Shown: positions 23,030 through 46,099 of the stretch, piece by piece
Layout of the letters: each line of letters opens with the position of its first letter
Numbering within the stretch: position 1 is the first letter of the stretch
NCBI RefSeq assembly: GCF_030684315.1
Contig: NC_081361.1
Span: 62,603,553 to 62,667,552 of the forward strand
Direction of reading: 5' to 3'
Origin: Stegostoma tigrinum
Taxonomy: Eukaryota
DNA: 64,000 nucleotides
Notes under the pieces: generated by a model
The model's database searches: none
The model's input: the letters and a program-made list of their open reading frames with translations, nothing else
What the model was told of the DNA's origin: nothing
Made by a program: the position numbers and the translations under genes

Positions 23030-25805
23030 AAAAGAACTAAAGCAAAGTACAGCGTAGGAACAGGTTCTCCTGCCCTCCAAGCCTGTGCCAATCATCATGC
23101 CCTAACCAAATTAAAAAACAAACCTTTTGCCCTTATTTGGTCTGTATCCCTCTATTCCCTCCCTATTCATGTAACCATCCAGATACCTCTTAAATGTCAC
23201 CAACATGCCTGATTCCACCACCTCTTCTAGCAGTGCGTTCCAGGCTCCTACCACTGTCTGCGTGAAAAACTTACTTGGCACATCTCCCCTAAACTTTTCC
23301 CCTCTCACCTTGAACCTGAGTCCCCGTGTAATTGAAACTTCAACACTGGGAAAAAGCCTCTGTCTATCCACCCTATCTCTGCCTCTCATATTTTTGTAGA
23401 CCTTTGTGCTGCTGTCTTTCCAGTGAAAACAATCCTAGTCTTTTTAACCTTTCCTGATAGCCAATACCCTCAAGACCAGGCAACATCCTGGTGAACATTC
23501 TCTGCACTCTCTCCTAAGCTTCCAAGCCCTTCTGGTTGTGTGGTGACCAAAACGGCACACAATACTCTAAATGCAGCCTAACAAGAGTTTTATACAGCCG
23601 CAACATTTTTGCCAACTCTTGTACTCCATGCCTTTGTCAATGAAGGCAAGCATGCCAAATGTCTTCTTAATCACCTTGGCCACCTCTGTTGCCAATTTTG
23701 GGGAACTGTGGACCAGTCCATTTATATTAGTGTTCCTAAGGGTTCTGCCATTCATAATTTAATTCATGCCCGAATTTGATCCTCCAAAATGCATCAACTC
23801 ACATTTGTATAGATTAAACTCTTTCTGCCATTTCTGTGCTCGAGTCACCAATCTATCTATATTCTGTTCAGAGATAATGGGAACTGCAGATGCTGAAGAA
23901 TCCAAGATAACAAAAGTGTGGAGCTGATGAACACAGTAGGCCAAGCAGCATCTTAGGAGCACAAAAGCTGACGTTTCGGGCCTCGACCCTTCATCAAAAC
24001 AAGGATCTGATGAAGGGTCTAGGCCCAAAATGTCAGCTTTTGTGCTCCGAAGATGCTGCTTGGCCTGCTGTGTTCATCCAGCTCCACACTTTGTTATCTA
24101 TATTCTGTTGTATCCTTTCACAATTGTCGGCACTACCAGCAACTCCACCAATCTTTGTGTCATCATCAGACTTACTAAGCAGACCACCCACATTTTCCTC
24201 CAGATCATTTATAAATGCTACAAACAACAGAGGACCTAAGACTGATCCCTGTGGAGCACCACTAGTTACCAGTCTCTATTCGAAAAACATCCTTCCACCA
24301 CTACCCTCAGTCTTCTATGACCAAGCCAGTTTAGTATCCATCTCACCAGCCCACCCTAAATCCTTTGTGATTTTGGTTTTTGTACCAATCTGCTATGTGG
24401 GACTTTATCAAATGCCTTATTAAAATTTATATAAACTTCATCCACAGCCCTTCCATCATCAACTATCTTTGCCATGTCTTCAAAACATTCAATCGGGTCA
24501 GTGAAACATGACATTCCCCGTACAAAACCATGCTGCCTTTTGCAAACTAGTCCATTTTCTTCCTCTGTATCTTCTCCAAGAGCTTCCCCACAATAGACAT
24601 CAGACCCACCGACCTATAATTTCCTAGATTATCCCTGCTTCCTTTCTTAAATAAGGGAAACACGTTGACTAATCTCCAGTTCTCTGGAACCTTTTCTGTG
24701 GTCAAAGAGGATGTGAAGATATCTGCTAGTGCCCCAGCTTTTTCTTCTGTTGTCACTTGCAGTAACATAGGTTAGATCCCATCTGTCCCTGGGTACTTGT
24801 CTACCTCAATACAATTTAGGATACCCAAGACTTCCTCCTTCAATATATTGACATTCTCGAAAGTATTCACACATTTATCCCTGATGTCAAAATCAGTCAT
24901 GTCTTTCTCCTTGTGGATATTGATACAAAGTACTCATTACGGGTCTCTCCCACTTCATGTGGATCCACTCATAACTTCCCTCCTTTGTCCTTGAGTAGGC
25001 CTACTCTTTCCCTCACTATCCTCTTTCTTCTAATATATGCATAAAAAGCCCTGGGATTCTCCTTGACCCTGTTTGCTACAAACATTTCACAGCCCCTTTT
25101 AGCCTTCCCAATTCCACGTTTAAGTTCCTTCCCAATTTTTCTATTCTCCTCAAGGGCTTAGTCACTTTGTAGCTCCCCAGACCTATTGTATGCTTCCTTT
25201 TTCTTTTTGACTCAGCTTACAATTTCCCTTGTCATCCATGGTTCCTGAATCCTGCCTTTCCTATTCCTTATTTTTGAAGACACATGCGTGTCCTGTACTT
25301 TAATCAACTGGCCTTTAAAAGCATCTCACATGCCAGATGTAGATTTGCCCTCAAGTAACTGCTCCCAATCCACATTCCCCAATTCTCGTCTAATTTGGAT
25401 ATAATTGGCACTTGCCCAATTAAGCACCCTCACCCAAGGTCCACTCTTGTCCTTGCCCATGACGACTCAAAATCTTACGGAATTATAGTCACTAAGTCCA
25501 AAATGCTCTCCTGCTGTAACATTGATATCCTGTCCTGGCTCATTCCCCAATATCAAGTCTTGAATGGCCTCATCTCTGGTTGAATTGTCAACTTACCATC
25601 TCAAAAAGCCCTCCTGGACACATCTAAAACATTGATCTCCATCCGAGCCCCTGGCTCTCAGGGAGTTCAAGTCAATAAGAGGAAAGTTGAAGTCATCCAC
25701 CATAACTACCCTGTTTTTTACACACCTTTCCAGTATCTGACCACATATCTGCTCCTCTCTCCCCAGTGGGCTGTTGGGAGGTATATAGAAAGCTCACAAC
25801 ACTGT
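23030..25805 (-). mobile_element. CR1 LINE ORF2 remnant, interrupted by a fold-back element
   Basis: RT and C-terminal ORF2 fragments in the ORF track ([28 protein letters not shown]). Confidence 0.9.
23869..24099. mobile_element. PLE-derived fold-back mini-element (family A) inserted in a CR1
   Basis: Two ~95-bp inverted arms plus a ~35-nt one-sided tail. TSD TATCTATATTCTGTT at 23854-23868 and 24095-24109. Confidence 0.88.
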
Positions 25806-43899: not shown

Positions 43900-46099
43900 A
43901 GATAATGGGAACTGCAGATGCTGGAGATTCCAAGATAATAAAATGTGAGGCTGGATGAACACAGCAGGCCAAGCAGCATCCCAGGAGCACAAAAGCTGAC
44001 GTTTCGGGCCTAGACCCTTCATCAGAGAGGGGGATGGGGGGAGGGAACTGGAATAAATAGGGAGAGAGGGGGAGGCGGACCGAAGATGGAGAGTAAAGAA
44101 GATAGGTGGAGAGAGTGTAGGTGGGGAGGTAGGGAGGGGATAGGTCAGTCCAGGGAAGACGGACAGGTCAAGGAGGTGGGATGAGGTTAGTAGGTAGCTG
44201 GGGGTGCGGCTTGGGGTGGGAGGAAGGGATGGGTGAGAGGAAGAACCGGTTAGGGAGGCAGAGACAGGTTGGACTGGTTTTGGGATGCAGTGGGTGAGGG
44301 GGAAGAGCTGGGCTGGTTGTGTGGTGCAGTGGGGGGAGGGGATGAACTGGGCTGGTTTAGGGATGCAGTAGGGGAAGGGGAGATTTTGAAACTGGTGAAG
44401 TCCACATTGATACCATATGGCTGCAGGGTTCCCAGGCGGAATATGAGTTGCTGTTCCTGCAACCTTCGGGTGGCATCATTGTGGCAGTGCAGGAGGCCCA
44501 TGATGGACATGTCATCAAGAGAATGGGAGGGGGAGTGGAAATGGTTTGCGACTGGGAGGTGCAGTTGTTTGTTGCGAATTGAGCGGAGGTGTTCTGCAAA
44601 GCGGTCCCCAAGCCTCCGCTTGGTTTCCCCAATGTAGAGGAAGCCGCACCGGGTACAGTGGATGCAGTATACCACATTGGCAGATGTGCAGGTGAACCTC
44701 TGCTTGATGTGGAATGTCATCTTGGGGCCTGGGATGGGGGTGAGGGAGGAGGTGTGGGGACAAGTGTAGCATTTCCTGCGGTTGCAGGGGAAGGTGCCGG
44801 GTGTGGTGGGGTTGGAGGGCAGTGTGGAGCGAATTCCATCCCCTATTCCCAATTCCTCCGCCTCCGCCGCATCTGCTCCCACGACAAGACATTCCACTCC
44901 CGCACATCCCAGATGTCCAAGTTCTTTAAGGACCGCAACTTTCCCCCCACGGTGATCGAGAACGCCCTTGACCGCGTCTCCCGCATTTCCCGCGACACAT
45001 CCCTCACACCCCGCCCCCGCCACAACCGCCCAAAGAGAATCCCCCTCGTTCTCACACACCACCCTACCAACCTCCGGATACAACGCATTATCCTCCGACA
45101 CTTCCGCCATTTACAATCCGACCCCACCACCCAAGACATTTTTCCATCCCCTCCCCTGTCTGCTTTCCGGAGAGACCATTCTCTCCTGTACTCCCTTGTT
45201 CGCTCCACACTGCCCTCCAACCCCACCACACCCGGCACCTTCCCCTGCAACCGCAGGAAATGTTACACTTGTCCCCACACCTCCTCCCTCACCCCCATCC
45301 CAGGCCCCAAGATGACATTTCATTTCAAGCAGAGGTTCACCTGCACATCTGCCAATGTGGTATACTGCATCCACTGTACCCGGTGCGGCTTCCTCTACAT
45401 TGGGGAAACCAAGCGGAGGCTTGGGAACCGCTTTGCAGAACACCTCCGCTCAGTTCGCAACAAACAACTGCACCTCCCAGTCGCAAACCATTTCCACTCC
45501 CCCTCCCATTCTTTAGATGACATGTCCATCATGGGCCTCCTGCACTGCCACAATGATGCCACCCGAAGGTTGCAGGAACAGCAACTCATATTCCGCCTGG
45601 GAACCCTGCAGCCATATGGTATCAATGTGGACTTCACCAGTTTCAAAATCTCCCCTTCCCCTACTGCATCCCTAAACCAGCCCAGTTCATCCCCTCCCCC
45701 CACTGCACCACACAACCAGCCCAGCTCTTCCCCCCCACCCACTGCATCCCAAAACCAGTCCAACCTGTCTCTGCCTCCCTAACCGGTTCTTCCTCTCACC
45801 CATCCCTTCCTCCCACCCCAAGCCGCACCCCCAGCTACCTACTAACCTCATCCCACCTCCTTGACCTGTCCGTCTTCCCTGGACTGACCTATCCCCTCCC
45901 TACCTCCCCACCTACACTCTCTCCACCTATCTTCTTTACTCTCCATCTTCGGTCCGCCTCCCCCTCTCTCCCTATTTATTCCAGTTCCCTCCCCCCATCC
46001 CCCTCTCTGATGAAGGGTCTAGGCCCGAAATGTCAGCTTTTGTGCTCCTGGGATGCTGCTTGGCCTGCTGTGTTCATCCAGCCTCACATTTTATTATCT
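43900..46099. mobile_element. Penelope-like element (Neptune-type), 5'-truncated, with inverted duplication and 15-bp TSD
   Basis: The plus arm encodes the RT C-terminus (SIPYSQFLRLRRICS), a Cys linker (CNRRKCYTC) and a GIY-YIG endonuclease (VVYCIHCTRCGFLYIGETKRRL...EH). Inverted arms at 43932-44833 and 45199-46100. TSD TAGTTATAAAAGCAG at 43885-43899 and 46100-46114. Confidence 0.92.
43998..44025 (-). ncRNA. Minimal hammerhead ribozyme motif in the inverted PLE arm
   Basis: Minus strand reads CTGATGAAGGGTCTAGGCCCGAAACGTC. The mirror copy at 46007-46034 (+) has one CpG-type change (GAAATGTC). Confidence 0.7.

What the first reader, a model, noticed from the sequence alone, without database searches (positions are those of the whole stretch)
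23869..46099. Ribozyme-hinged fold-back mini-retroelements derived from Penelope-like elements
SEEN: independent ~180-230 bp insertions at 23869-24099, 29015-29206, 29344-29546 and 35362-35539. Each consists of a PLE 3' terminus joined to its own reverse complement, with an extra tail on one arm only. Three have clear 15-16 bp TSDs. In all four the turn-around lies at or inside the hammerhead motif (ttcatca-aaacaaggat-ctgatga; gggcc|tgatgaaggg; caggtctgaa|cagaaatgtc; cctcagaact-gagg-aagttctgagg). The parent GIY-YIG element with the same family-A terminus is at 43900-46099. KNOWN: PLE pseudo-LTRs carry minimal hammerheads, and PLEs often insert with inverted segments and a short tail. INFERENCE: these are a stereotyped non-coding class of MITE-looking RNA-derived elements whose hinge is set by the ribozyme, through cleavage or RT stalling/template switching at its structure. 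They may be mobilised in trans as units. I am not aware of this being described as a system in sharks.
Basis: partly seen in the sequence, partly recalled or inferred. Interest (0 to 1): 0.78.

Follow-up and report, generated by a model that had tools for sequence, protein, structure and literature searches.

The report
Penelope hairpin stubs mark RNA ends
These small mirror-image insertions are very common stubs of a known kind of jumping gene, not a new mobile element, and the points where their halves meet likely record where the element's RNA starts and, less often, where its built-in RNA scissors cut.

Summary
The four fold-backs are real: head-to-head arms, tail on one arm, 15-16 bp TSDs on three. 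The 'parent' at 43900-46099 is the same structure with 0.9-1.3 kb arms hinged inside the ORF. In 1.65 Mb sampled blind, 63 of 84 tight family-A pairs are minis, with 61 different junctions. Both arms carry the same subfamily variants, so the minis are best read as insertion by-products made anew each time, not mobilised units. None of the four is hinged at the predicted ribozyme cut; every arm spans it. Genome-wide, arm ends stop sharply 4 nt before CTGATGA, 30 nt after a conserved TATA-like box. They carry an extra G in 61 of 85 cases (27% expected), the mark of a copied cap. A minor class is hinged exactly at the predicted cut: 682 perfect palindromes against 47 and 21 at control 4-mers. Likely mechanism: both target nicks prime cDNA at the two known internal start sites, the cDNAs run off the RNA 5' end and are joined. 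The architecture is published; I found the RNA-end record in no paper searched. This scan reached the same reading on other DNA of this genome.

The parts
23869..24099 (.). Family-A mini fold-back 1: tailed arm 23869-23996 (sense on -, ends at about +1), 9-nt filler, tail-less arm 24006-24099 (sense on +, starts at -1). Positions count from the C of CTGATGA = 0.
   Evidence: TSD 23854-23868 / 24095-24109
29015..29206 (.). Older family-A mini fold-back 2: tailed arm to 29127 (ends at about +12), 5-nt filler, tail-less arm 29133-29206 (starts at +20); hinge in stem II, 5' of the predicted cut; no clear TSD
29344..29546 (.). Family-A mini fold-back 3: tail-less arm 29344-29419 (ends at about +13), 2-nt CT microhomology, tailed arm 29418-29546 (starts at 0)
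   Evidence: TSD 29328-29343 / 29547-29562; junction found 74 times in the genome
35362..35539 (.). Family-B mini fold-back: tailed arm 35362-35496 and 38-nt arm 35502-35539, both starting at exactly -4 (the A of an initiator-like TCAGTT), 5-nt filler between
   Evidence: TSD 35347-35361 / 35540-35554
43900..46099 (.). Long family-A fold-back, 5'-truncated, no RT region: tailed arm 43900-44833 (sense on -), tail-less arm 44836-46099 (sense on +), hinge inside the ORF
   Evidence: TSD 43885-43899 / 46100-46114
45000..45779 (+). C-terminal part of the PLE ORF: CX4CxxC linker and GIY-YIG endonuclease with the internal CxxC
   Evidence: GIY-YIG, E 3e-4, 21.5 bits, just under Pfam's cut-off of 22.6; same family as the near-full ORF in L116
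45973..45978 (+). TATA-like TATTTA at -34
   Evidence: at -34/-35 in 86 of 98 read-through family-A copies; promoter role inferred
46003..46003 (+). Inferred capped transcription start (-4)
   Evidence: pile-up of arm ends and extra G
46007..46038 (+). Minimal type-I hammerhead (CTGATGA, stem II, GAAA, no stem III loop); predicted cut between 46034 and 46035 (+27/+28); second copy on - from 44025
   Evidence: motif scan; stem II in the fold; geometry as in PMC4209133; no Rfam hit

Best explanation
These are head-to-head pairs of short copies of one end of a Penelope-like retrotransposon, likely made anew at each insertion when both cut strands of the target prime reverse transcription and the two copies run off the 5' end of the element's RNA and are joined. 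Shown: the unit is about 3.6 kb with the order pLTR, hammerhead, tail, ORF; one arm ends at +89 to +93 and the other at +125 to +127; TSDs peak at 14-15 bp; arm 5' ends stop sharply at -4 with an extra G; a minor class stops at +28; both arms share subfamily variants. Inferred: (1) a TATA/initiator promoter in the pLTR starts a capped RNA at -4, so the hammerhead is the first thing in the transcript and the hinge falls at it by position; (2) the protein (a predicted dimer in PMC11167929) nicks both strands about 14-15 bp apart and starts cDNA at the two internal sites that bound the tail; (3) started at the 5' pLTR copy, the cDNAs are only about 95 and 130 nt long and end by copying the cap; started at the 3' copy, they give the long arms; (4) if the RNA has self-cleaved they end at +28, where the self-complementary AGCT ends anneal; (5) end-joining with trimming, microhomology or filler scatters the junctions from -2 to about +20, as in three of the four window copies.
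For: Cliff: among 137 anchored young copies, 18 true ends in the 4 nt from -6 to -3 against 3 in the 33 nt from -39 to -7 (read-through variants set aside by eye). Extra G: 4,821 exact genome matches with G before the -4 start; in the first 100 of 6,241 hits with a non-C base there, 15 are read-through substitutions and 85 are truncated, with G 61, T 20, A 4; after dropping 27 rows whose base could come from the other arm, G 37, T 18, A 3 (hand count; 27% expected, p 6e-9). An extra G marks the cap in L1 insertions (PMC11702581). At +28 no G excess: 5 of 15 (Fisher p 0.04 against -4). Promoter geometry: TATTTA at -34/-35 in 86 of 98 copies; family B has TATAAA at -33 and TCAGTT with A at -4 (two copies with full context). 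Cut class: perfect palindromes at AGCT (+28) 682, at ACGT (+23) 47, at GGCC (+55) 21; starts at +28 about 3,100 rows (61 of the first 100 of 5,061) against about 440 at +31. Two priming events: 81 of 84 tight pairs have exactly one tailed arm, either side; in 19 long pairs the longer arm is the tail-less one in 13 and the tailed one in 6; many junctions have both arms at -4 with filler or a GC overlap. In vitro, a PLE protein nicks and extends both strands and starts at two sites that bound the tail (PMC11167929). De novo origin: subfamily markers agree between arms in 61/67, 59/71, 54/65 and 49/59 pairs against 32-50% expected; arm-to-arm distance within a copy is half that between copies for both recurrent junctions (0.031 vs 0.062, n 20; 0.041 vs 0.082, n 13; permutation p 2e-4).
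Against: No RNA evidence for the start site or the cut was obtained. In family B the ends cluster at -2 to -7 but the G excess is not significant (10 of 24, p 0.09), and that pattern excluded most read-through copies by design. The cut class is nearly invisible in the blind sample (10 of 371 arms start at +25 to +30; 1 of 137 at +28). Family-A stem I has only 2 Watson-Crick pairs and the monomer folds into an inactive form. PMC11167929 found cleavage unnecessary in vitro and no RNA-seq reads ending at the cut in anole. The D. virilis Penelope promoter is TATA-less and internal (PMC2377424). The TATTTATT motif also reads as AATAAA on the other strand and sits in a splice-acceptor-like stretch. 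Arm lengths correlate (rho 0.65, n 81; 0.41, p 0.08, in the 19 long pairs), which copy-back also predicts. Arm concordance could be raised by later gene conversion (a hint at 30969-31179).
Confidence: 0.72

Rival explanations
1. Ribozyme-set hinge: cleavage, or RT stalling at the folded hammerhead, ends the cDNA for the bulk of the minis.
For: 52 of 84 tight pairs have an arm ending within -12..+12; a real class ends at the predicted cut; the monomer forms a hairpin from 0 to +29 that could slow RT.
Against: All arms of the four window copies span the cut site. An RT moving 3' to 5' meets the structure at +29, yet the main stop is at -4, beyond it, and bears an extra G. 16 of 84 pairs are hinged far upstream.
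Confidence: 0.1
2. One cDNA folds back on itself and is copied back (self-priming), the second arm being trimmed at the tail boundary; RNA ends still set the first arm.
For: Correlated arm lengths and shared variants; self-priming was proposed for Adineta inverted junctions (PMC3846280).
Against: Either arm can be the longer one (6 vs 13); both arms often end at -4 with filler or each with the G; loop-less AGCT and GC centres fit two annealed ends better than a hairpin; both strands are extended in vitro.
Confidence: 0.12
3. Non-autonomous fold-back units that are transcribed and mobilised in trans as a family (MITE- or retrozyme-like).
For: Identical junctions recur: 682 at AGCT, 74 for the junction of 29344-29546; non-autonomous PLEs exist (MRC1; retrozymes).
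Against: 61 different junctions among 63 blind-sampled minis; each recurrent junction sits on several subfamily haplotypes shared by both arms (9 patterns in 20 loci, 13 in 13); minis lack the TATA-like box at -34; 74 is of the order of the control junctions (47, 21).
Confidence: 0.04
4. Later central deletions of longer palindromes, or assembly fold-back artefacts, create the short hinges.
For: Palindromes are unstable (general knowledge); the local partial copy at 30969-31179 has a left arm 12 nt longer than that of 29344-29546.
Against: Deletion does not explain the cliff at -4, the extra G, or 682 vs 47 for two 4-mers 5 nt apart; one-sided tails and TSDs (10 nt or more in 12 of 20 AGCT loci) are not what artefacts give. 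It may account for some of the scatter.
Confidence: 0.02

Closest known systems
Inverted-pLTR insertions of endonuclease-bearing Penelope-like elements (Adineta Pen2a/Pen2, PMC3846280; overview in PMC8557442; D. virilis Penelope, PMC2377424)
   Same: Head-to-head inverted, 5'-truncated copy; 30-40 bp tail on one end only; TSD; pLTR with TATA-like and initiator-like motifs (Adineta).
   Different: Here most insertions are only the two termini, with no ORF, at an estimated 38 per Mb for one family; TSDs are longer (14-15 vs 8-10 bp); ends are fixed at an inferred cap site and at the cut site, which those passages do not report.
Poseidon of Anolis carolinensis in vitro (PMC11167929)
   Same: Two internal RT start sites bounding the tail; both strands nicked and extended; hammerhead at the front of the transcript; uncleaved RNA is the main template.
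   Different: That paper does not treat joined inverted products in the parts read and found no reads at the cut; here a minor class ends at the predicted cut. Here the start sites lie in the 5' leader (ORF ATG near +170), and the linker is of the Neptune/Nematis type.
Minimal PLE hammerheads (PMC4209133) and non-LTR retrozymes (bioRxiv 10.64898/2026.07.22.740005)
   Same: Same minimal core without stem III loop; opposite-strand pairs 100-700 bp apart were noted in Schistosoma.
   Different: Retrozymes are head-to-tail tandem units thought to amplify through circles; these are head-to-head, single, TSD-flanked and show no unit amplification.
LINE-1 twin priming and cap-derived extra G (PMC11702581)
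   Same: Second nick primes a second cDNA; junction microhomology; discrete 12-18 bp TSD; extra G at full-length 5' ends.
   Different: L1's second primer copies a different, upstream part of the RNA; here both arms copy the same stretch from two fixed start sites 33-35 nt apart.

Membership tests
EN+ Penelope-like element (source family A) | Single ORF with RT and C-terminal GIY-YIG endonuclease | tested here: met
   947-aa frame in L116; RVT_1 and GIY-YIG hits, both under Pfam's cut-off; Atlas neighbours at 0.98 carry RVT_1 and GIY-YIG
EN+ Penelope-like element (source family A) | pLTR from partial tandem, with 30-40 bp optional tail | tested here: met
   7 of 14 loci show terminus-hammerhead-tail directly before the ORF; tail +93 to +127 on one arm in 81 of 84 pairs
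EN+ Penelope-like element (source family A) | CCHH motif with two Cys inside GIY-YIG; CX2-5CxxC linker (Neptune/Nematis) | tested here: met
   both motifs read in the translation; definitions from PMC8557442 passages
Neptune clade | RT phylogeny | not tested
   no reference PLE set at hand; assignment rests on the linker, which Nematis shares
EN+ Penelope-like element (source family B) | Linked RT-EN ORF | not tested
   only the terminus, hammerhead and 35-45 nt upstream were examined
Minimal type-I hammerhead of PLEs | CUGANGA, stem II, GAAA, palindromic 15.2-16.2 without loop, short stem I | tested here: met
   stem I 2 bp in family A, 4 bp in family B; not detected by Rfam
Minimal type-I hammerhead of PLEs | Self-cleavage | not testable with these tools
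   indirect only: arm ends at the predicted site
MITE (non-autonomous DNA transposon) | Fixed short TSD, symmetric terminal inverted repeats, uniform copies | tested here: not met
   TSD 8-18 nt, peak 14-15; one-sided tail; 61 junctions in 63 copies
Non-LTR retrozyme | Head-to-tail tandem units each with a hammerhead | tested here: not met
   head-to-head single pairs
Non-autonomous PLE family moved as a unit | Many copies descending from one master junction | tested here: not met
Named Dfam/Repbase entry | Sequence match to a curated family | not testable with these tools
   no repeat library is offered

The most novel reading that the evidence does not exclude
The genome holds a record, in over a hundred thousand insertions, of the Penelope integration cycle: a dimer primes two cDNAs from both target strands at the two tail sites, the capped RNA begins exactly at stem I of the hammerhead, and a minimal vertebrate PLE hammerhead does cut in the germ line, with the cut RNA still used as template. 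The minis would then be trapped strong-stop-like intermediates.
Probability: 0.55. Interest if true: 0.68.

Novelty: new variant of a known kind. Interest (0 to 1): 0.48.

Why it matters
How Penelope-like elements make inverted repeats with a one-sided tail, and what their hammerheads do, are stated as open in PMC8557442 and PMC11167929. The end distribution gives base-exact predictions (start at -4 with a cap, cut at +27/+28, two primings 14-15 bp apart) that can be tested in the existing in-vitro system. It also warns that such hairpins can be mistaken for MITEs. It is not a new class of mobile element.

Tried and rejected
Rfam scan of the window: no hammerhead model hit. RNA runs: no RNA holder listed, only contigs, so no reads were laid; this is no evidence on expression. 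Cap-G test in family B: inconclusive. Folding z-scores of the leader are unremarkable (-0.2, -0.7, +0.1); the free dimer fold pairs stem II between molecules instead of forming the active core. The 30 best matches to mini 3 suggested a uniform family, but that set is selected by the query; the blind sample replaced it. BLAST end points at -1 for old subfamilies can reflect divergence from the reference, so exact starts were taken from the alignment-free count and from pattern lists. Splicing as cause of the -4 end was rejected: the bases upstream vary or come from the other arm. Of 180 stretches asked for the blind sample, 14 did not exist and 1 of the 166 held was all N. Print searches without a paper on these minis or on PLE cap or cut footprints.
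Full report
Coordinates. Positions count from the C of CTGATGA (0) on the element's sense strand. 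The predicted cut lies between +27 and +28, the tail-less end at about +92, the tailed end at +125 to +127.

1. Observation. The four insertions are as described, three with 15-16 nt TSDs. Their hinges are at +1/-1, +12/+20, +13/0 and -4/-4. Every arm includes the GUC/GUU position, so none is hinged at the cut. The element at 43900-46099 has the same build with long arms (902 nt at 99%), its own TSD and a hinge in the ORF; it lacks the RT region and cannot be the source.

2. The source element. [quoted passage not shown] Pfam hits are weak, but the nearest Atlas clusters (0.98) carry the same domains, and the CX4CxxC linker and the CxxC within GIY-YIG match the Neptune/Nematis definition in PMC8557442. 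In 7 of 14 loci taken by an ORF-proximal query, the same terminus, hammerhead and tail lie directly before the ORF; the unit is about 3.6 kb and the first ATG is near +170. The arms of the minis are therefore the first 95-130 nt of the transcript leader.

3. Blind sample. I took 166 stretches of 10 kb at round positions of large contigs (one all N; 1.65 Mb). They hold 371 family-A terminal arms and 102 head-to-head pairs, 84 with a gap of 30 nt or less. Of these 81 have exactly one tailed arm, 63 are minis, and 16 have both ends upstream of -40. TSDs of 8 nt or more are found in 54 of 83, peaking at 14-15. The 63 minis (median 202 bp) show 61 different junction coordinates; extrapolated, about 120,000 copies of this family.

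4. The main stop. Among 137 young copies anchored without alignment, 52 read on past -40; 12 stop between -39 and -7, of which 9 are by eye read-through variants; 22 stop between -6 and -3, of which 4 are read-through variants. That is 18 ends in 4 nt against 3 in 33 nt. Genome-wide, 4,821 exact matches begin at -4 with a G in place of the templated C. Of the first 100 of 6,241 hits with any non-C base there (hand count), 15 are substitutions in read-through copies; the other 85 have G 61, T 20, A 4. Dropping 27 rows whose base could be templated by the other arm leaves G 37, T 18, A 3, against 27% expected (p 6e-9). An extra G is the cap mark of full-length L1 insertions (PMC11702581). TATTTA sits at -34/-35 in 86 of 98 read-through copies. 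The bases at -6 to 0 fit an initiator in old subfamilies and a TCT-type start in young ones (consensus motifs recalled). Family B has TATAAA at -33 and TCAGTT with A at -4; its listed copies start at -2 to -7 (that pattern dropped most read-through copies), 5 or 6 of 27 close copies in the sample read through, and its G excess is not significant (10 of 24). I infer a capped start at -4, the first base of stem I. No RNA data confirm it.

5. The minor stop. Of the first 100 of 5,061 hits starting at +28 after a non-C base, 39 are read-through variants, 35 rows (22 loci) are perfect palindromes centred on AGCT and 26 are other truncations (hand count). The control start at +31 has 510 hits, about 86 of the first 100 truncated. 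Patterns of equal design give 682 palindromes at AGCT (+28), 47 at ACGT (+23) and 21 at GGCC (+55). Of 20 AGCT loci, 19 have one tail and 12 a TSD of 10 nt or more. Untemplated bases at +28 show no G excess (5 of 15), as expected of an uncapped end. This fits cleavage in vivo, but a stall at the foot of the 0 to +29 hairpin is not excluded, the class is rare in the blind sample, and PMC11167929 saw no reads at the cut in anole.

6. Units or by-products. The junction of mini 3 recurs 74 times, of the order of the controls. For both recurrent junctions the two arms of a copy are twice as close to each other as to arms of other copies, and the copies span several subfamily haplotypes. In the blind pairs four subfamily markers agree between arms in 83-91% of cases against 32-50% by chance. 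One master cannot give this. Later conversion between arms may add to the agreement (see the local copy at 30969-31179), but would not place one junction on several subfamily backgrounds.

7. Mechanism. Two primings from the two target nicks, at the two internal start sites shown in vitro, run-off at the RNA 5' end, then end-joining. Copy-back is the main rival for the second arm: arm lengths correlate, yet either arm can be longer and both often end at -4. Whether one RNA is copied twice or two RNAs from one locus are used is open.

8. Literature seen. PMC11167929: parts 1-2 of 4 of the text. PMC4209133: parts 1-2 of 4. bioRxiv 10.64898/2026.07.22.740005: part 1 of 5 and passages. Passages only: PMC3846280, PMC8557442, PMC2377424, PMC11702581. 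No supplements were read; those of PMC11167929 (genomic ends of copies) could bear on novelty. Searches gave no paper on these minis or on cap and cut footprints in PLE copies; subscription journals, Repbase and Dfam were not covered. The analogy to retroviral strong-stop DNA is recalled. After forming this reading I found eight earlier notes of this scan on other DNA of the same genome with the same conclusions; they are not independent evidence.

9. Verdict. Real and far from chance; a known PLE insertion architecture in miniature, not a new mobile class. The value lies in the base-exact record of RNA ends. Interest 0.48.

Noticed in passing
window 30969-31179: A 199-nt copy (91%) of the left flank and left arm of mini 3, 1,748 nt downstream, bounded by a short C/A-rich direct repeat. 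Its arm runs 12 nt further than in mini 3 and keeps the common base at +29 where both arms of mini 3 share a variant, a hint of template switching or arm-to-arm conversion.
   Followed up: partly
window 48161-48418: An unrelated inverted repeat, 80-nt arms at 84% with a 98-nt spacer, no hammerhead and no TSD found.
   Followed up: no
window 39222-39260: 5' fragment of U2 snRNA, likely a truncated retrocopy (E 0.0045, below the gathering score).
   Followed up: no
window 46135-46726 and 61950-62733: Two more 5'-truncated, non-inverted family-A copies (74% and 90% to the long element).
   Followed up: no
window 6099-6190, 17046-17130, 20118-20232, 30610-30697, 60930-61038: Single family-B-like termini, several starting in or just before the hammerhead.
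   Followed up: no
L036:7458-8115, L049:8137-9325, L056:9217-9627: Fold-backs whose two arms start at the same position around a 120-530 nt spacer that holds further terminus pieces; nested or multi-step events.
   Followed up: no
L177:9524-9920: A terminus fragment expanded into a 58-nt tandem array.
   Followed up: no
junction list: A second loose group of arm ends at +31 to +50 (33 of 371 arms at +31 to +40), often joined by short microhomologies; trimming of cut-site products is one reading.
   Followed up: no
G000, 40 loci: A 141-nt ORF stretch is 100% identical at 40 listed loci, so family A was active very recently.
   Followed up: no
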